The notes under the pieces are model-generated. The model was not told where the DNA came from and did no database searches. It worked only from the letters and a program-made list of their open reading frames with translations. Shown here piece after piece: positions 4,368 to 9,157 of a DNA stretch of 32,000 nucleotides. Source of the DNA: Prochlorococcus marinus str. NATL2A (GTDB taxonomy: Bacteria > Cyanobacteriota > Cyanobacteriia > PCC-6307 > Cyanobiaceae); the NCBI RefSeq assembly GCF_000012465.1, contig NC_007335.2, positions 1,800,001-1,832,000 on the forward strand, given 5' to 3'. Made by a program: the position numbers and the translations under genes. Each line of letters opens with the position of its first letter. Position 1 is the stretch's first letter.

Positions 4368-5257
4368 GGCAAGTTACCCAAAATATTAACAAGACCACAA
4401 TGAATAATATCAATCTCAAGCAAAGATTTAAGCTGCTCTCCTTTACTATCAATTTCTACATTTTTGTTTGGAGTCAAAAGATAGGGAATAGGAAGATAAT
4501 TCTTCTCCTTTTTATCGGTATCTTGATTCCATCTAGACCATGAATAAAGAGGAATATTTAGGAATTTTTCTAAGGACTTAAGAAAAACACTTGAAGTATC
4601 TGAAGAGACAGGGTGATGAATCAACGCAGGTTTAACAAAAGGACTCTGACTAGTTATCAGATCATCTATTAATGATAGCCATGGTATAAAAGAACCTAGG
4701 AAAGGAAACAATTTTATATTTTGTCCCTCTTCTTGCAAACGTTGAAATATTTTTGGTACATCACTACAAACATGACTTCCAGGTAACAAAAAAAGAGGAA
4801 CTAAAAACACTGATCTATTACCGATGTCAATTTGCTCTGGATTGTCATCAGTTAAAGCCTCTATTGAAACAGAGCGATTTTTAAGCCTCTTTAATTGGTC
4901 AACCAAAGAAAGAAGAGATGGATGTATCTCACCACCTCGAGAACCATGCACTAGTAAATGTAAATGGTGAGGAGGCTCACAATTAATTCTATTTGGTAAC
5001 AAAGACAACTTTTGATGGACATCTGAAGATGTATTAGTACTTTCAGCTAATTTATTAAAATTGAGATGATGAGAAATTCTAGATACTCGAGAACAAATAA
5101 TTTCAGGCGAGGAGAAGGGGTTGATCGAAGAAACACTCAATACAGAGGAAGAAAAAGATTCAAAAGTACTTTTCATCGAGACCTCTTTGCTATGAAAGAG
5201 GTTTGGGAAATGCTCAAAAGTGGAGCGATTAGAAGCCTCGGAGAAATTGGACGCCAA
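4364..5257 (-). CDS. CbiX/SirB-like sirohydrochlorin chelatase with long Ser-rich N-terminal region
   Basis: Motifs LLVHGSRGG and VFLVPLFLLPGSHVCSDVP match the CbiX/SirB class II chelatase signature. The ORF as drawn starts at TTG (5257). An internal ATG at 5176 (residue M28) is an alternative start. Translationally coupled to cobA. Confidence 0.6.
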   Translation of the reverse strand: MASNFSEASNRSTFEHFPNLFHSKEVSMKSTFESFSSSVLSVSSINPFSSPEIICSRVSRISHHLNFNKLAESTNTSSDVHQKLSLLPNRINCEPPHHLHLLVHGSRGGEIHPSLLSLVDQLKRLKNRSVSIEALTDDNPEQIDIGNRSVFLVPLFLLPGSHVCSDVPKIFQRLQEEGQNIKLFPFLGSFIPWLSLIDDLITSQSPFVKPALIHHPVSSDTSSVFLKSLEKFLNIPLYSWSRWNQDTDKKEKNYLPIPYLLTPNKNVEIDSKGEQLKSLLEIDIIHCGLVNILGNLP

Positions 5258-5310
5258 TACTAAATGAGAAATTATGAAACCAATTAATCAATTAAATGGA
5301 TAGATAGGAT

Positions 5311-5324
5311 GTATTGAATGATAC
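5311..5324. promoter_or_regulatory. Candidate NtcA binding site (GTA-N8-TAC) in the divergent nirA / chelatase-cobA intergenic region
   Basis: Exact GTATTGAATGATAC, centred about 93 nt upstream of the nirA ATG. nirA is a classical NtcA target in cyanobacteria. An A-rich possible -10 (TAAAAA, about 5346-5351) lies at roughly the expected spacing but is not a clean TAN3T. Confidence 0.6.
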
Positions 5325-5410
5325 CAAGATAAATAAAAAATTTGGTAAAAACTGATACATCTAAAGTTTAGATTTTAAAGGTTAATTATAAATGTCAAAC
5401 CTCAATACTA

Positions 5411-7072
5411 ATGGTTCAATACTATCTCGAAGGCAAAAAACTAAATCAAGTTGAAAAAAATAAAGCTGCTAAGGATGGACTCGAAATCGGAAAGGATATA
5501 GACAAATTTGCTGAAATGGGTTGGGAGCAAATGGATAAAACTGATTTAGAATTAAGATTGAAATGGTATGGGATGTTTTGGAGACCCAAAACCCCTGGAA
5601 AGTTTATGTTAAGGTTAAGAATACCTAATGGAATAATCAATGCAGAACAATTAAAAGTAATTGCATCAATTGTTGCGAGATATGGAGAGAATGGAAGTTG
5701 TGATATAACAACTAGACAAAATATACAACTTAGAGGTGTTTTAATTAGTGATTTGCCTGAGATATTAAATAGGTTAAAAAAAGTAAACATATCAACAACT
5801 CAATCTGGATTTGATAATCCAAGAAATGTTACTGGAAATCCCATCGCTGGAGTTGATCCAGAAGAGATTATAGACACAAGAATATATACATCAAAAATGC
5901 AAGATCATTTAACTAGCGATGGTAAAGGAAACTCAGAATTTTCAAATCTTCCAAGGAAATGGAACACAGCTATAGCAGGCTCTAAGGATAATTTTCTTTT
6001 ACATAATGATTTAATTTTTCATCCAGTTAAAATTAATGAGGTTTTAGGTTTTAGTGTTTGGATTGGAGGTGTACTTTCATCAGTAATGAATGAATATGCA
6101 GTTCCGTTGAATGCCTGGGTTGAAGAAGAAAAAATTTATGAATTAACATCAATTATTTTATCCCTCTGGAGAGATAATGGGGAACGTAATATAAGACCTA
6201 AAGGTAGGTTTAGATTTTATTTAGATAAAATTGGCATTGAAACATTTAGAAATCTTATCGAAAAACAATATGGAACATTAAAAGAAGATCCAGGGTCAAT
6301 ATTTTCAGATAAACCAAGGTCATTTTTTGGAATTCATTCTCAAAAACAAGAAGGTAAATATTTTGCAGGAATTCATGTGCCAGTAGGCCGTCTTTTGGCT
6401 GAAGATTTACAAGATCTAGCAAATATATGTGAGAATTTTGGTGATAAAGAAATAAGACTTACCGAAGATCAAAATATTATTATTACTGGTATAGATACAA
6501 ATCTAATTGAAGAATTTAAGGAGCAATCTATCTTACAAAAGTTTCCATTAGAACCAGAAACTATTGCAGCAGGTACTGTTTCTTGTACTGGAAATACCTA
6601 TTGTGGTTTCGCTCTAACAAATACAAAAGATCAAGCTTTAAAAGTCTCGCATGAATTAGACAAAGAATTAGATTTGAAAGACGAATTAAAGATTCATTGG
6701 ACTGGGTGTCCTAATAGTTGTGGTCAAGCCTATATGGGAGGAATTGGTTTAACGGGCAAAAAAGCTAAAGACAAAGAAGGAAAAACCGTTGAAGCTTATG
6801 ATATAAGCATTGGTGGATCACAAGGGCCTAATTATAAATTAGGAGAATTAATAAAAAAATCTGTCCCTCAAAATGAATTAAAAGATGTACTAAAAGATTT
6901 ACTTATTTCAGATTTTGATGCAAAAGAAAAAATATTTTTAAGTAAAAAATCTGGTTCATTAACTCGATTTATGAATTGGTTTAGTCCTCTTGGCAAAGAT
7001 AAACCGCTGATTAATCGAGCTAATGGCAGCCACGACATCTTTTCCAAATTTATGAATCGAATTAGTAATTAA
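5411..7072 (+). CDS. nirA: ferredoxin-nitrite reductase (siroheme/4Fe-4S)
   Basis: 553 aa. N-terminal KDGL...FA..GWE.....D...RLKWYGMFWRPKTPGKFMLRLRIPNG. Cluster-ligand cysteines in CTGNTYCGFA ... WTGCPNSCGQ. Has an extra C-terminal tail; see findings. Confidence 0.92.
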   Translation: MVQYYLEGKKLNQVEKNKAAKDGLEIGKDIDKFAEMGWEQMDKTDLELRLKWYGMFWRPKTPGKFMLRLRIPNGIINAEQLKVIASIVARYGENGSCDITTRQNIQLRGVLISDLPEILNRLKKVNISTTQSGFDNPRNVTGNPIAGVDPEEIIDTRIYTSKMQDHLTSDGKGNSEFSNLPRKWNTAIAGSKDNFLLHNDLIFHPVKINEVLGFSVWIGGVLSSVMNEYAVPLNAWVEEEKIYELTSIILSLWRDNGERNIRPKGRFRFYLDKIGIETFRNLIEKQYGTLKEDPGSIFSDKPRSFFGIHSQKQEGKYFAGIHVPVGRLLAEDLQDLANICENFGDKEIRLTEDQNIIITGIDTNLIEEFKEQSILQKFPLEPETIAAGTVSCTGNTYCGFALTNTKDQALKVSHELDKELDLKDELKIHWTGCPNSCGQAYMGGIGLTGKKAKDKEGKTVEAYDISIGGSQGPNYKLGELIKKSVPQNELKDVLKDLLISDFDAKEKIFLSKKSGSLTRFMNWFSPLGKDKPLINRANGSHDIFSKFMNRISN

Positions 7073-7369
7073 TTCGATTTTATAAAAAATTAGTTTTCTT
7101 ACTTTTTAAATTTATGACTCAAAGTACTTCTCAAATGAGCTACGTCTTACCTAAAGATTCTATTTCTCGTTTCATGAATTGGTTTAACAACCTTGGTAAA
7201 GATAAACCGCTGATTAATCGAGCTAATGGCAGCCACGACATCTTTTCCAAATTTATGAATCGAATTAGTAATTAATTCGATTTTATAAAAAATTAGTTTT
7301 CTTACTTTTTAAATTTATGACTTCAAGTGCCTCTCAAATGGACTACGTCCTACCAAATGAATTGGTAGA
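6964..7369. repeat. Tandem direct duplication, 2 x 203 bp, spanning the nirA 3' end, the intergenic spacer and the focA 5' end
   Basis: Position p aligns with p+203. The stretch 6995-7119 is identical to 7198-7322 (125/125). The left flank 6964-6994 has 8 mismatches in 31 nt and the right flank 7120-7164 has about 12 in 45 nt, counted by hand. Confidence 0.95.
7114..7275 (+). CDS. Small chimeric ORF (53 aa): FocA-like N-terminus + NirA C-terminal-tail-like sequence
   Basis: Not in the supplied ORF track. Hand translation of ATG 7114 to TAA 7273-7275 gives MTQSTSQMSYVLPKDSISRFMNWFNNLGKDKPLINRANGSHDIFSKFMNRISN. Residues 1-14 parallel the FocA start MTSSASQMDYVLPN. Residues 19-53 parallel the NirA end RFMNWFSPLGKDKPLINRANGSHDIFSKFMNRISN. 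It has the same upstream sequence as focA. Expression is unknown. Confidence 0.4.
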   Translation: MTQSTSQMSYVLPKDSISRFMNWFNNLGKDKPLINRANGSHDIFSKFMNRISN

Positions 7370-8228
7370 TGGAATGATTGCTGCAGGTGGCAAGAAATCA
7401 TCTGTAAGCGTAAAAAACTTGCTAATAAGAGGCTTCTATTCAGGAGCAATTTTAGGTTTAGCGACATGTCTTGCAATTACTATTGGTATTCAATCTGGGA
7501 TGCCTTGGTTAGGTTCTTTTATATTTCCTTTTGGTTTTGCAAGTATCGTTCTTTTCGGTATGGAGCTTGTTACTGGTAATTTTGCGTTACTACCAATGGC
7601 CGTATGGGCTGGAAAGAGTTCTTGGTCTGCAACTGTAAGGAATTGGCTATGGGTTTGGATCGGTAATTTTCTAGGTACAGCATTTGTTGCCGTACTACTT
7701 TCAATTAGTTTATCAAGTGCTGGAAATGTAGATCCATTAACTGCTGCTGAAGGTGGAAAAGGATGGGCAGTTGTAGCAGCAAAAATAATAGCTATACATA
7801 AAGCAAACACAGTTGTTAAATATGAAGCACTTGGAAGTACTGGTTTTTTCCTTGCATTTTTACGTGGAGTAATTGCAAACTGGCTGGTTTGTTTAGGTGT
7901 AACAATGGCACTTGTAAGTAAAAGTGTTCCAGGAAAGATACTTGCTTGCTGGCTACCTATAACTGCATTCCAAACAATGGGAATGGAGCACATAGTAGTT
8001 AATATGTTTTTGCATACAACTGGCCCTCTACTTGGTTCGGGTATTCCTTTTACAAAAGTAATTTTTTGGAATTTCTTACCAGTGACGATTGGAAATATTG
8101 TTGGAGGAATGGTATTTATTGGAATGCTTTTCTATAGCACCCACAAAACTCCTATCTCTAATGTTTTACCAGACGTAAAAGATGAAAAATTAGAACGAGA
8201 GCTCGAAGCACAACTTGGTGCAAGATAA
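7317..8228 (+). CDS. focA: formate/nitrite transporter family protein (nitrite channel)
   Basis: 303-aa polytopic membrane protein with FNT-family features (GMELVTGNF, ..VCLGV.., NIVGG). Lies immediately downstream of nirA, as in nitrite-assimilating marine picocyanobacteria. Confidence 0.88.
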   Translation: MTSSASQMDYVLPNELVDGMIAAGGKKSSVSVKNLLIRGFYSGAILGLATCLAITIGIQSGMPWLGSFIFPFGFASIVLFGMELVTGNFALLPMAVWAGKSSWSATVRNWLWVWIGNFLGTAFVAVLLSISLSSAGNVDPLTAAEGGKGWAVVAAKIIAIHKANTVVKYEALGSTGFFLAFLRGVIANWLVCLGVTMALVSKSVPGKILACWLPITAFQTMGMEHIVVNMFLHTTGPLLGSGIPFTKVIFWNFLPVTIGNIVGGMVFIGMLFYSTHKTPISNVLPDVKDEKLERELEAQLGAR

Positions 8229-8256
8229 AATTAAAAAAATTAAATTTTAAACTAAA

Positions 8257-8295
8257 TTAAGAAAGCCTAGAAAGTTGTATTCTAGGCTTTCTTAA
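8257..8295 (+). terminator. Strong hairpin downstream of focA (15-bp perfect stem, 9-nt loop)
   Basis: TTAAGAAAGCCTAGA (8257-8271), loop aagttgtat, then TCTAGGCTTTCTTAA (8281-8295), an exact reverse complement. It starts 29 nt after the focA stop. There is no clean U-tract after the 3' arm. Confidence 0.6.
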
Positions 8296-8446
8296 TATGT
8301 CTACTATTTAATAGTTATTAATAGGGTTTTAAAAGATTTTCCATTAATCTCTAAACAAATCAGATACTTGACTTGATCAATAAACAAATAGTAAATTAAA
8401 AAATTACTTTGATTAATTATTTTCTAATCCACTAAATTTAAATTCT

Positions 8447-9157
8447 ATGATTATTGAAGAAAGCAATATATGGGATACCATTAATAACGCGAAAAAAACC
8501 AAGCCAAGTGCTGAGTGGCTTAAGACTGCATACAATCCAAATATTAACTTTGAACTTAGACAAGAAATCGCTATTCGCTTGGGACAATTATCAAAAGTAG
8601 GATGGATAAAAATAAAAGATCTACTTAAGACGTATGGAAATAAAGATGAACTAATCCTTGCTGCAGGACTTACTTATCAAGATGATGCCAAAGAATGGCT
8701 CTTAAACCATCTCTATAGTGATGACACAATGAACATCAAAGTCGTAGAAGCTTTGGCTTGCTGGGGAGGAACCTTACCGATTGAGCTTATTAAAAAAACA
8801 TTAGAAGAAAAAAGTGCGCAAATGAAAATAGCTGGTTTAGAATTATTAAAATTCAAAGCTCATTTACTTTCTGATTTTGATTTACTTGAGATAGCAAAAT
8901 CTCCTTTAAATGATTTCAGAGAAGAGATAGTGATCAAAACACTGACAATAATTCAAAGACGTGAAAGCTTAGATATCTGTGAAGCCATCAGCGATGTAAT
9001 ACAAAAAGGCTCGGATAAATCTGCGTACTATGGACTAATGGCTCTTGGTTCAATCGGTACTAAAATTAGTAAAAATATCCTATTAGATTTAGTTAAAAAT
9101 TTAAAGAATACTGAGCGCAAAGAACTTGCAAAAAAACAACTTAACTTTGAAATATAA
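8447..9157 (+). CDS. HEAT/armadillo-like helical repeat protein, function unknown
   Basis: 236-aa all-helical-looking protein with recurring roughly 30-aa leucine-rich segments resembling PBS-lyase-type HEAT repeats (e.g. ...VVEALACWGG..., ...AYYGLMALGSIG...). A 6-nt gap separates it from the next ORF. Confidence 0.5.
   Translation: MIIEESNIWDTINNAKKTKPSAEWLKTAYNPNINFELRQEIAIRLGQLSKVGWIKIKDLLKTYGNKDELILAAGLTYQDDAKEWLLNHLYSDDTMNIKVVEALACWGGTLPIELIKKTLEEKSAQMKIAGLELLKFKAHLLSDFDLLEIAKSPLNDFREEIVIKTLTIIQRRESLDICEAISDVIQKGSDKSAYYGLMALGSIGTKISKNILLDLVKNLKNTERKELAKKQLNFEI

What the first reader, a model, noticed from the sequence alone, without database searches (positions are those of the whole stretch)
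6964..7369. 203-bp tandem duplication across the nirA-stop/focA-start junction with a mosaic identity profile
Read directly from the sequence, every base p in 6964-7166 aligns with p+203. The central 125 bp (6995-7119 vs 7198-7322) is perfectly identical. That core covers the last roughly 25 nirA codons, its TAA, the whole 41-bp spacer and ATGACT. Both flanks are still clearly homologous but about 26% diverged (8/31 and about 12/45 mismatches). A recent duplication would be uniformly identical and an old neutral one uniformly diverged. The mosaic therefore suggests an old duplication whose core is kept identical by gene conversion or selection. The diverged flanks argue against an assembly artefact. 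The decamer AAATTTATGA recurs at 7047, 7108, 7250 and 7311, which offers microhomology for slippage. The repeat also doubles whatever promoter or translation-initiation signals precede focA, at the exact point where the nitrite reductase and the nitrite channel are joined.
Basis: seen in the sequence. Interest (0 to 1): 0.8.

Follow-up and report, generated by a model that had tools for sequence, protein, structure and literature searches.

The report
Tandem repeat rebuilds a microprotein gene
A real, old 203-bp tandem duplication in the nitrite-assimilation operon of low-light Prochlorococcus (strain NATL2A) leaves the cell with a conserved ~45-residue peptide in two forms, one fused to the end of nitrite reductase and one free-standing that borrows the start of the nitrite-channel gene, and gene conversion keeps the two copies alike.

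Summary
Window 6964-7166 and 7167-7369 are a head-to-tail 203-bp repeat with a 125-bp identical core and diverged flanks. It is not an artefact: the same structure, with its unique junction, is in 11 of 15 related single-cell genomes, in metagenome contigs and in a lineage whose NirA is only 83% identical.

The last 38 NirA residues are a fused copy of a small-protein family of 41-49 aa. That family lies free-standing between nirA and focA/nitM in nearly all marine Prochlorococcus and Synechococcus, and one paper notes it as SynWH7803_RS12335, function unknown. The duplication creates an in-frame 53-aa ORF (7114-7275): focA's spacer, ATG and 15 codons joined to the 38-codon peptide module. The LLI clade therefore carries both a tethered and a free copy.

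Gene conversion is shown. In the core, copies within a genome differ by 0.9% and orthologues between genomes by 5%, and tract borders vary by genome. Unconverted copies differ mostly at synonymous sites (pS 0.62, pN 0.07). That fits an old duplication with both copies under protein-level selection.

The microhomology and promoter-doubling ideas are not supported. Peptide function is unknown; the fusion points to NirA as a partner, and NitM gating is a speculative alternative.

The parts
5311..5358 (+). Two NtcA-type boxes (GTAN8TAC at 5311-5324 and 5345-5358) upstream of nirA; the likely operon promoter region
   Evidence: No sigma-70-like or NtcA-like site lies inside the repeat. Co-transcription of nirA, the small ORF and nitM was shown by RT-PCR in Synechococcus WH7803 (PMC9430850).
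5411..7072 (+). nirA, ferredoxin-nitrite reductase, 553 aa, identical to NATL2A AAZ58788.1
   Evidence: The NCBIfam equivalog model covers residues 2-507 only. Residues 510-553 have pLDDT<50 in AlphaFold2.
6956..7069 (+). NirA C-terminal 38 residues (SLTRFMNWFSPLGKDKPLINRANGSHDIFSKFMNRISN): a fused copy of the nirA-focA small-protein module
   Evidence: The HMM of the free small ORFs hits NirA tails of this clade at E about 1e-18 over model positions 5-47. Free-standing homologues occur in other clades.
6964..7166 (+). Repeat unit 1 (203 bp)
7167..7369 (+). Repeat unit 2 (203 bp)
6995..7119 (+). Identical core, copy 1 (125 bp); the current gene-conversion tract in this genome
   Evidence: Tract borders differ in other genomes.
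7198..7322 (+). Identical core, copy 2 (125 bp)
7055..7079 (+). Hairpin spanning the nirA stop codon (10-bp perfect stem, 5-nt loop, extendable), followed by UUUUAU
   Evidence: dG -10.3 to -11.6 kcal/mol, z -2.8 to -3.2
7073..7113 (+). Spacer 1 (41 nt): a duplicate of focA's upstream region, now the translation-initiation region of the small ORF
7114..7275 (+). Chimeric 53-aa small ORF (RefSeq WP_225866306.1): 15 focA-derived codons (MTQSTSQMSYVLPKD) joined in frame to 38 peptide-module codons
   Evidence: Intact in every two-copy locus. AlphaFold2 predicts helices 13-29 and 41-52.
7156..7167 (+). Novel junction of the duplication (focA-derived ...CCTAAAGA | TTCTATTTCTCG... module-derived), unique to the two-copy state
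7258..7282 (+). Second copy of the stop-codon hairpin, here spanning the small-ORF stop
7276..7316 (+). Spacer 2 (41 nt), upstream of focA
7317..8228 (+). focA/nitM, formate/nitrite-transporter family nitrite channel, 303 aa (AAZ58789.1)

Best explanation
The window is the nirA-focA operon of Prochlorococcus marinus NATL2A (LLI clade).

Shown:
- Marine picocyanobacteria normally carry a free-standing small gene of 41-49 codons between nirA and focA/nitM. Its consensus is M-x7-DxFSRFVNWFSxxGxDKPxINRxxGxQDFFSKLMNRISG, with two predicted amphipathic helices.
- In the LLI lineage and its sisters (NirA down to 80% identical) one copy of this module is fused in frame to the C-terminus of NirA.
- A 203-bp head-to-tail duplication of [module + stop + 41-nt spacer + first ~15 focA codons] provides a second, free-standing copy. 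That copy uses a duplicate of focA's initiation region and start codon.
- The two repeats undergo recurrent gene conversion. Each genome therefore has an identical tract, with borders that differ between genomes, flanked by old diverged ends.

Inferred:
- Conversion rarely reaches the repeat ends, and selection differs there. Real NirA and FocA sequence is constrained, whereas the junction is free to diverge.
- Order of events: the small gene plus the focA 5' end duplicated first. The upstream copy then fused to nirA by recombination between the motif-1-like tail that many Prochlorococcus NirA proteins already carry and motif 1 of the small ORF. The reverse order is not excluded.
- Both copies are transcribed from the NtcA-type promoter upstream of nirA and translated, and both are kept by selection on the peptide.

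Unknown:
- The peptide's biochemical role. The fusion argues that it works with NirA.
For: Repeat anatomy:
- The chimeric ORF is in frame and intact here, in 11 single-cell genomes, in metagenome contigs L082 and L086, and in loci L087-L089. The exact protein is indexed in 208 blocks of the collection, 20 of them with contigs >1 Mb.

Family:
- A free small ORF ends 12-61 nt upstream of focA in 71 of 80 loci, counting the fused tails.
- The family comprises 253 clusters, with no Pfam or NCBIfam model. Only 46 clusters appear among 1.84 billion representatives.
- Median dN/dS among free ORFs is 0.32.

Fusion:
- LLI NirA is 553 aa, against about 510-540 elsewhere.
- Sister clades have NirA tails such as ...DFFSRFMNWFSELGESSND* plus a free ORF. 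These are the substrates needed for a motif-to-motif deletion.

Age:
- The duplication is present in crown LLI and in the P0240/L086 lineage (NirA 83% identical), with a homologous junction.
- Unconverted copies in L011 differ at 14 synonymous and 6 non-synonymous positions (pS 0.62, pN 0.066). Orthologous pS within the clade reaches at most 0.23-0.28.

Concerted evolution:
- Core distance is 0.009 within genomes and 0.051-0.056 between genomes (p<1e-4). The flanks show the reverse.
- Minor alleles are shared by both copies in 43 cells and confined to one copy in 14. Tract borders vary.

Order of events:
- The free copy in L086 keeps the canonical free-ORF motif DFFSRFV.
- Its NirA tail has the NirA-tail-type SRFM.

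Expression context:
- There is no promoter or terminator inside the repeat, and NtcA boxes lie upstream of nirA.
- In WH7803 the orthologous 44-aa ORF is induced about 200-fold by N deprivation and co-transcribed with nirA and nitM (PMC9430850).
Against: - No direct evidence (ribosome profiling, mass spectrometry, 5'-end mapping) that the 53-aa ORF is translated in NATL2A.
- Apparent single-copy states lacking the free ORF occur in four single-cell genomes (L005, L008, L010, L012) and four metagenome contigs (L081, L083, L084, L085). If real, the free copy is dispensable. They may instead be short-read assemblies that skipped the repeat loop.
- Conversion from the selected NirA tail could by itself keep most of copy 2 open and conserved.
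- AlphaFold2 gives the NirA tail pLDDT<50, so there is no structural support for docking on NirA.
- The order of fusion and duplication rests on a few diagnostic residues.
- One frameshifted variant of the small ORF exists (P0010).
Confidence: 0.78

Rival explanations
1. Neutral relic. The duplication was a chance event and the 53-aa ORF is not functional. It looks conserved only because gene conversion keeps overwriting it from the selected NirA tail and from the selected focA 5' end.
For: Conversion is frequent and runs in both directions. The part that no selected donor can overwrite is only about 20-30 nt of junction. Apparent single-copy genomes nest among two-copy ones. One frameshifted variant exists.
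Against: The arrangement has persisted across lineages with NirA down to 83% identical and paralogue pS 0.62, yet start codon, frame and stop are intact in every two-copy locus. Differences that accumulated between unconverted copies are mostly synonymous. A free-standing copy of this ORF is retained by almost all other picocyanobacteria that have nirA-focA, at dN/dS about 0.3. Prochlorococcus genomes are streamlined (general knowledge), which argues against long retention of useless DNA.
Confidence: 0.1
2. RNA-level or regulatory function. What matters is doubling the stop-codon hairpin and the AU-rich spacer, for example two successive attenuator or processing sites that lower focA expression relative to nirA. 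The peptide would be incidental.
For: A stable hairpin (z about -3) spans each stop codon and is followed by a U-run. Stop-spanning hairpins of different sequence recur at the 3' end of the small ORF in other clades. The longest invariant runs among the 28 repeat units (32 and 17 nt) cover the hairpin arms. In WH7803 nitM is induced less (56x) than nirA (159x) and the small ORF (194x) (PMC9430850).
Against: The terminator scan finds nothing in the repeat; the stem has only two G-C pairs. In L086 the two spacers have diverged while the coding parts are homogenised, which points to selection or conversion on coding sequence. The synonymous-biased divergence of the copies needs protein-level constraint. 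This idea can coexist with the main explanation.
Confidence: 0.07
3. Assembly artefact: a repeat wrongly expanded in the assembly.
For: Short-read assemblers can mis-resolve 200-bp tandem repeats. Some related assemblies show one copy.
Against: The about 78-bp junction segment (7120-7197) is unique sequence, 26-33% diverged from its paralogues, and cannot arise from mis-joining one copy. It recurs with lineage-specific substitutions in independent single-cell, metagenome and isolate assemblies, including contigs >1 Mb.
Confidence: 0.01
4. Recent event between diverged alleles. The mosaic arose in one step by unequal recombination with DNA from a divergent strain, rather than from an old duplication plus conversion.
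For: Two allele types of the module (type A ...NWFSPLG..., type B ...NWFNNLG...) circulate in the clade, and homologous recombination is common in Prochlorococcus (PMC6370341).
Against: The focA-derived junction half is 33% diverged from every focA in the clade, yet nearly invariant among genomes (0.011). The same junction is present in a lineage with 83% NirA identity. Tract borders differ among genomes, which requires many events.
Confidence: 0.04

Closest known systems
SynWH7803_RS12335, the 44-aa ORF between nirA and nitM of Synechococcus WH7803 (Dominguez-Martin et al. 2022, PMC9430850)
   Same: Same family (alignment A1; HMM hits) and same position just upstream of focA/nitM. Two predicted helices. 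That paper already noted 44% identity to 'nitrite reductase of NATL2A', which is the fused tail described here.
   Different: The NATL2A free copy is a chimera. Its first 15 codons and its upstream region are duplicated from focA, and a second copy of the module is fused to NirA. Neither the fusion-plus-duplication architecture nor the concerted evolution is described there. Function is unknown in both.
NirP1, the nitrite-reductase-interacting small protein of Synechocystis (Kraus et al. 2024, PMC10907346)
   Same: A small protein tied to nitrite reductase and to nitrite handling. The NirA fusion here implies a NirA-associated role. That paper states that Prochlorococcus has no NirP1, so its nitrite release must work without it.
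   Different: No sequence or fold relationship. NirP1 is 76-86 aa, with an invariant Cys, three Trp and four beta-strands, and has its own NtcA-repressed promoter. This peptide is 41-53 aa, helical, with one Trp and no Cys, and is encoded inside the nirA operon.
Concerted evolution of tandem or dispersed duplicates by gene conversion (for example bacterial tufA/tufB and rRNA operons; from general knowledge)
   Same: Paralogues within a genome are more alike than orthologues between genomes. Tract borders vary. Identity decays toward the repeat ends.
   Different: The unit here is only 203 bp. It spans a gene end, an intergenic spacer and the next gene's start, so conversion homogenises a protein domain fused to an enzyme with its free-standing paralogue.
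Postulated activator of the autoinhibitory C-terminal segment of alpha-cyanobacterial NitM (Maeda et al. 2015, PMC4390861)
   Same: That work shows full-length NitM of CC9311 and MIT9313 is inactive in a heterologous host unless 21 C-terminal residues are removed, and it postulates an unknown factor specific to alpha-cyanobacteria. The small ORF is restricted to picocyanobacteria and sits immediately upstream of nitM.
   Different: No evidence links the two. FocA with that C-terminal segment also occurs in loci without an adjacent small ORF. This is a lead only.

Membership tests
Tandem duplication evolving in concert by gene conversion | Head-to-tail repeat of one unit with no intervening sequence | tested here: met
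   Period 203, 1.9 copies, 0 indels; offset-203 profile
Tandem duplication evolving in concert by gene conversion | Paralogues within a genome more similar than orthologues between genomes | tested here: met
   Core distance 0.009 within genomes vs 0.051-0.056 between; 10,000 permutations, none as low
Tandem duplication evolving in concert by gene conversion | Conversion tracts with different end points in different lineages | tested here: met
   Profiles of 12 genomes. In L086 the coding parts are homogenised and the spacers diverged.
Tandem duplication evolving in concert by gene conversion | Recombination-dependent (RecA) mechanism | not testable with these tools
   Needs genetics
nirA-nitM intergenic small-ORF family (SynWH7803_RS12335-like) | 41-49 aa protein with the two motifs D-x-F-S-R-F-V-N-W and D-F-F-S-K-L-M-N-R-I-S | tested here: met
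   Alignment A1: 36-60% identity to 33 members; D42, S45, N49 and S52 invariant. HMM E about 4e-22. Length is 53 aa because of the focA-derived N-terminus.
nirA-nitM intergenic small-ORF family (SynWH7803_RS12335-like) | Encoded between nirA and focA/nitM, ending a few tens of nt upstream of focA | tested here: met
   Stop 41 nt before the focA ATG; 12-61 nt in relatives
nirA-nitM intergenic small-ORF family (SynWH7803_RS12335-like) | Two predicted alpha-helices | tested here: met
   AlphaFold2 helices 13-29 and 41-52, pLDDT about 72 in the helices; hydrophobic moment 0.63-0.73
nirA-nitM intergenic small-ORF family (SynWH7803_RS12335-like) | N-regulated and co-transcribed with nirA and nitM | not tested
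   Shown only for WH7803 (PMC9430850). Here there is only the absence of internal promoter or terminator motifs and NtcA boxes upstream of nirA.
NirP1 | 76-86 aa, invariant Cys and three Trp, four beta-strands | tested here: not met
   53 aa, no Cys, one Trp, helical. Not a member; functional analogy untested.
Gene fusion of interacting partners ('Rosetta stone') | Two separate proteins in some genomes are one polypeptide in others | tested here: met
   Free ORF plus a shorter NirA in most clades. Full module fused to NirA in LLI and sisters; motif 2 alone at the NirA C-terminus in some Synechococcus/Cyanobium, e.g. L058, L070, P0199, P0289.
Gene fusion of interacting partners ('Rosetta stone') | Physical interaction of the separate partners | not testable with these tools
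   The monomer AlphaFold2 model leaves the tail unplaced, pLDDT<50. No multimer tool available.
Assembly artefact | Structure absent from independent assemblies; no unique junction sequence | tested here: not met
   The unique junction recurs in independent assemblies

The most novel reading that the evidence does not exclude
The peptide is the missing picocyanobacterial regulator of nitrite flux. [quoted passage not shown] It would be a functional counterpart of NirP1 in organisms that lack NirP1. LLI Prochlorococcus would keep a NirA-tethered and a free form because the two act differently, for example stoichiometric tethering versus titratable regulation, with gene conversion keeping both compatible with the same partner.
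Probability: 0.2. Interest if true: 0.8.

Novelty: new variant of a known kind. Interest (0 to 1): 0.62.

Why it matters
Nitrite uptake and release by Prochlorococcus shape the primary nitrite maximum and cross-feeding in the ocean. The 2024 NirP1 paper states that Prochlorococcus lacks NirP1, so its mechanism is open. The 2015 NitM study also left an unidentified activator of the channel.

This locus does three things:
- It shows that an overlooked, strongly N-induced small ORF is conserved across marine picocyanobacteria.
- It provides natural fusion evidence tying that ORF to nitrite reductase.
- It shows a clade that went to unusual lengths to keep both a fused and a free copy: a duplication that borrows the next gene's start, then long-term concerted evolution.

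Together these turn a 'hypothetical 47-aa ORF' into a specific, testable candidate regulator. The locus is also a compact natural example of gene conversion homogenising a protein domain with its free-standing paralogue across a gene boundary. RefSeq names these 44-53-aa proteins 'ferredoxin--nitrite reductase', which is misleading.

Tried and rejected
- **NirP1 identity.** Rejected from the paper's own family description.
- **Pfam and NCBIfam on the small ORF.** No family; only sub-threshold CspE/CspC noise.
- **Rfam on 5000-8600.** Nothing relevant.
- **Promoter and terminator scan.** Nothing inside the repeat.
- **Microhomology at the breakpoints.**
  - The decamer is internal to the unit.
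  - ATGAATTGGT occurs in both nirA (6971) and focA (7358). Recombination there would give a 184-bp, out-of-frame unit, so it was not used (read).
  - The true breakpoints are too diverged to read.
- **AlphaFold2 of full NirA.** Run to see whether the tail docks. The body is confident (pTM 0.82) but the tail has pLDDT<50, so it is uninformative.
- **Metagenome scan with the 32-nt invariant core.** Only 3 contigs, one with two copies and two with one, too few for a population frequency.
- **Co-occurrence of the small ORF with the NitM C-terminal segment.** All 80 FocA proteins have the segment, including loci without an adjacent small ORF, so there is no discriminating signal.
- **Word-indexed search with the single 53-aa protein.** Found only near-identical hits. 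A profile of diverse members was needed.
Full report
**1.

Tandem Repeats Finder reports one array at 6963-7354: period 203, 1.9 copies, 92% matches, no indels, score 679. Comparing every base p with p+203 gives 24 mismatches in 6964-7166. None fall in 6995-7119, so the 125-bp core is identical to 7198-7322.

The core contains:
- the last 25 codons of nirA;
- its TAA;
- the 41-nt spacer;
- ATGACT.

- The right flank has 16/47 mismatches, or 10/40 over its alignable part.
- Weak homology runs about 10 nt further left, to about 6953.
- The decamer AAATTTATGA starts at 7046, 7108, 7249 and 7311.

**2. Where the window comes from.**

The NirA and FocA proteins are identical to AAZ58788.1 and AAZ58789.1 of Prochlorococcus marinus NATL2A, a member of the low-light LLI clade. 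NATL2A lacks narB according to Berube et al. 2019 (PMC6370341).

**3. It is not an artefact and not strain-specific.**

A scan of one genome per species with FocA returned 80 loci.

| Source | Result |
|---|---|
| 15 closest loci (FocA 98-100% identical; single-cell genomes) | 11 have the repeat at offset 203; 4 appear single-copy |
| Metagenome contig L082 | Two copies |
| L086 (NirA 83% identical) | Two copies, offset 201 |
| Exact 53-aa product of the junction ORF | Indexed in 208 blocks of the assembly collection, 20 with contigs >1 Mb, always as nirA(553)-ORF(53)-focA(303) in the places read |

The junction segment (7120-7197) is unique sequence. It carries lineage-specific substitutions, so mis-assembly of a single copy cannot create it.

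**4.

ORF listing shows an intact 53-aa ORF at 7114-7275. It reads MTQSTSQMSYVLPKD|SISRFMNWFNNLGKDKPLINRANGSHDIFSKFMNRISN.
- The first 15 codons are a diverged copy of the focA start (MTSSASQMDYVLPNE).
- The remaining 38 codons are a copy of the NirA C-terminus.

I then looked at the same junction in more distant relatives.
- NirA there is shorter, about 510-540 aa.
- A free-standing ORF of 41-49 aa lies between nirA and focA, ending 12-61 nt before the focA ATG.
- Its consensus is M-x7-DxFSRFVNWFSxxGxDKPxINRxxGxQDFFSKLMNRISG.
- An HMM of these ORFs finds the module in 71 of 80 loci. In LLI genomes it is found twice, once at the end of NirA (E about 1e-18) and once in the 53-aa ORF (E about 1e-21).

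The 'nirA tail' is therefore a fused copy of a conserved small-protein gene, and the duplication supplies a second, free copy.

**5. The small-protein family.**

- A profile search of 5.8 billion proteins gave 253 clusters. Almost all are 41-78 aa with no Pfam domain. They are named 'conserved hypothetical' or, misleadingly, 'ferredoxin--nitrite reductase'.
- A full HMMER pass over 1.84 billion cluster representatives found only 46 clusters, so the family is narrow.
- NCBIfam has no model for it.
- Among free ORFs outside LLI the median dN/dS is 0.32.
- AlphaFold2 predicts two helices, 13-29 and 41-52, with helix pLDDT about 72. Both are strongly amphipathic, with hydrophobic moment 0.63-0.73.

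One paper has noticed a member. SynWH7803_RS12335 is 44 aa and lies between nirA and nitM. It is induced about 200-fold by N deprivation and co-transcribed with both neighbours. Its similarity to 'nitrite reductase of NATL2A' was noted there, and its function is unknown (PMC9430850).

It is not NirP1. NirP1 is 76-86 aa, with an invariant Cys, three Trp and beta-strands, and is reported absent from Prochlorococcus (PMC10907346).

**6. Gene conversion is demonstrated, not just inferred.**

I aligned the 24 repeat units of 12 two-copy genomes plus four single units. Variants inside the core are usually present in both copies of a genome. Examples:
- the H/P codon;
- the L004 GAT/GCC pair;
- the L011 spacer variants;
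- the L014 start-region variants.

| Region | Copies within a genome | Orthologues between genomes |
|---|---|---|
| Core | 0.009 | 0.051-0.056 |
| Left flank | 0.19 | 0.07-0.10 |
| Right flank | 0.33 | 0.01-0.09 |

For the core, none of 10,000 permutations reached a value as low as the observed one. Minor alleles sit in both copies in 43 genome-by-site cells and in only one copy in 14.

Tract borders differ by lineage:
- In L001, L004 and L009 the tract extends through the left flank.
- In L006 it reaches the breakpoint.
- L011 is largely unconverted.
- In L086 the coding parts are homogenised but the two spacers are diverged.

**7. The duplication is old and both copies are constrained.**

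In L011 the unconverted copies differ by 14 synonymous and 6 non-synonymous changes over 38 codons (pS 0.62, pN 0.066). Orthologous pS across the sampled clade averages 0.13-0.15 and reaches at most 0.23-0.28.

A NirA tree gives (((crown LLI, P0229), P0240), P0205). Two copies occur in crown LLI and in the P0240 lineage, and their junctions have the same structure. The event therefore predates that split.

Single-copy genomes nest among two-copy ones. L008 is sister to L050, and L012 groups with L009 and L011. They are either secondary deletions between the repeats or short-read assemblies that skipped the repeat loop. L081 and L083 are otherwise identical to two-copy sequences, which makes collapse plausible. 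I could not decide between the two.

**8. Reconstruction (inference).**

Sister clades have a NirA ending in a motif-1-like tail, for example ...DFFSRFMNWFSELGESSND*, followed by the free ORF. Recombination between that tail and motif 1 of the ORF would give exactly the LLI fused NirA.

The free copy in L086 retains the canonical free-ORF residues (DFFSRFV). Its NirA tail has the NirA-tail-type SRFM. This favours the following order:
1. Tandem duplication of [module from the conserved Asp to the stop + spacer + focA codons 1-14].
2. Fusion of the upstream copy to nirA.

The reverse order, fusion first with the duplication then restoring a free copy, is not excluded. The basal single-copy lineage P0205/L084 would fit it.

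The two allele types correspond to the ancestral identities of copy 1 and copy 2. Type A (NWFSPLG) is typical of NirA tails, and type B (NWFNNLG) is typical of free ORFs. Conversion has since moved them in both directions.

**9. Expression signals.**

- No sigma-70-like promoter or intrinsic-terminator-like site lies in 6964-7369.
- Two GTAN8TAC boxes lie at 5311-5324 and 5345-5358, upstream of the nirA start at 5411.
- Rfam finds nothing.

What is doubled is focA's AU-rich initiation region and ATG, which now serve the small ORF.

The decamers are internal to the unit and cannot account for a 203-bp duplication. A 10-nt match, ATGAATTGGT, occurs in both nirA and focA, but recombination there would give a 184-bp, out-of-frame unit.

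**10. Function.**

The biochemical role of the peptide is unknown. Three observations bear on it:
- The natural fusions argue that the peptide acts with NirA. The full module is fused in LLI, and motif 2 alone is fused in some Synechococcus/Cyanobium NirA proteins.
- AlphaFold2 models the NirA body well (pTM 0.82) but leaves the tail unplaced (pLDDT<50), so this gives no structural support either way.
- Maeda et al. 2015 showed that NitM of alpha-cyanobacteria is autoinhibited by a conserved C-terminal segment and postulated an unknown activator (PMC4390861). The small ORF immediately upstream of nitM is a candidate, but nothing here tests that.

**11. Verdict.**

The feature is a new variant of known processes: tandem duplication, chimeric ORF formation, domain fusion and concerted evolution. 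Here they act on a barely characterised small-protein gene in an ecologically important operon.

Noticed in passing
window 7055-7079 and 7258-7282; loci L015-L023, L054-L060, L064, L071, L076, L078 at the small-ORF stop: A hairpin spans the stop codon of NirA and of the small ORF (10-bp perfect stem, z about -3). Hairpins of different sequence sit at the same place in other clades, with apparent compensatory changes (e.g. GAAUUA/UAAUUC vs GUAUUA/UAAUA). This could be a conserved processing or attenuation element between the small ORF and focA. The 32-nt and 17-nt runs invariant in all 28 repeat units cover its arms.
   Followed up: partly
window 8178-8225 (FocA C-terminus); all 80 loci: The autoinhibitory C-terminal segment of FocA/NitM is HD(E/D)KLERELAAELGAR in all 65 loci outside the close LLI clade. 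The LLI clade alone has KDEKLERELEAQLGAR or KDEKLEREVAAQLGAR. The clade that rearranged the small-ORF module also changed this otherwise near-invariant segment, which may reflect co-evolution.
   Followed up: no
L018, L027, L044, L045, L048, L052, L053 (NirA C-termini); L058, L070, P0199, P0289, P0186: Many Prochlorococcus NirA proteins end in a motif-1-like tail (xFSxFMNWFSxLG...). Some Synechococcus/Cyanobium NirA proteins end in motif 2 (DFFS[KR]FMNRIS[GN]). The free small ORF is still present downstream. Exchange between the NirA C-terminus and the small ORF has therefore happened more than once.
   Followed up: partly
L005, L008, L010, L012 (single-cell genomes); L081, L083, L084, L085 (metagenome contigs): These are apparent single-copy versions: fused NirA, no free small ORF. 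Some are otherwise identical to two-copy sequences. They could be real deletions between the repeats or short-read assemblies that skipped the repeat loop.
   Followed up: partly
L086:2680-3110: In a lineage with 83% NirA identity the repeat has period 201. The module and the focA 5' part are nearly identical between copies, but the two spacers have diverged to roughly half identity. This is the opposite mosaic to NATL2A, where the spacer is inside the identical core.
   Followed up: yes
window 7156-7158 (codon D15 of the small ORF): The focA-derived codons NE (AAT GAA) have become KD (AAA GAT) in the junction copy. This places an Asp exactly where the family has its conserved Asp before FFSRF (alignment A1). 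It may be adaptive or chance.
   Followed up: no
protein P0010 (JGI contig of 3934 bp): One variant of the 53-aa ORF carries a frameshift after ...GKDKPL and ends as LIEPMAAPTSFPNL. It is either a sequencing error or a pseudogenised free copy.
   Followed up: no
RefSeq WP_225866306.1 and relatives: The annotation pipeline names these 44-53-aa proteins 'ferredoxin--nitrite reductase', evidently by similarity to NirA proteins with fused tails. The name is misleading. The original NATL2A annotation has no gene between nirA and focA.
   Followed up: yes
window 8256-8296: A 17-bp-stem palindrome lies just downstream of the focA stop (8228). It is terminator-like and probably marks the operon's end.
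   Followed up: no
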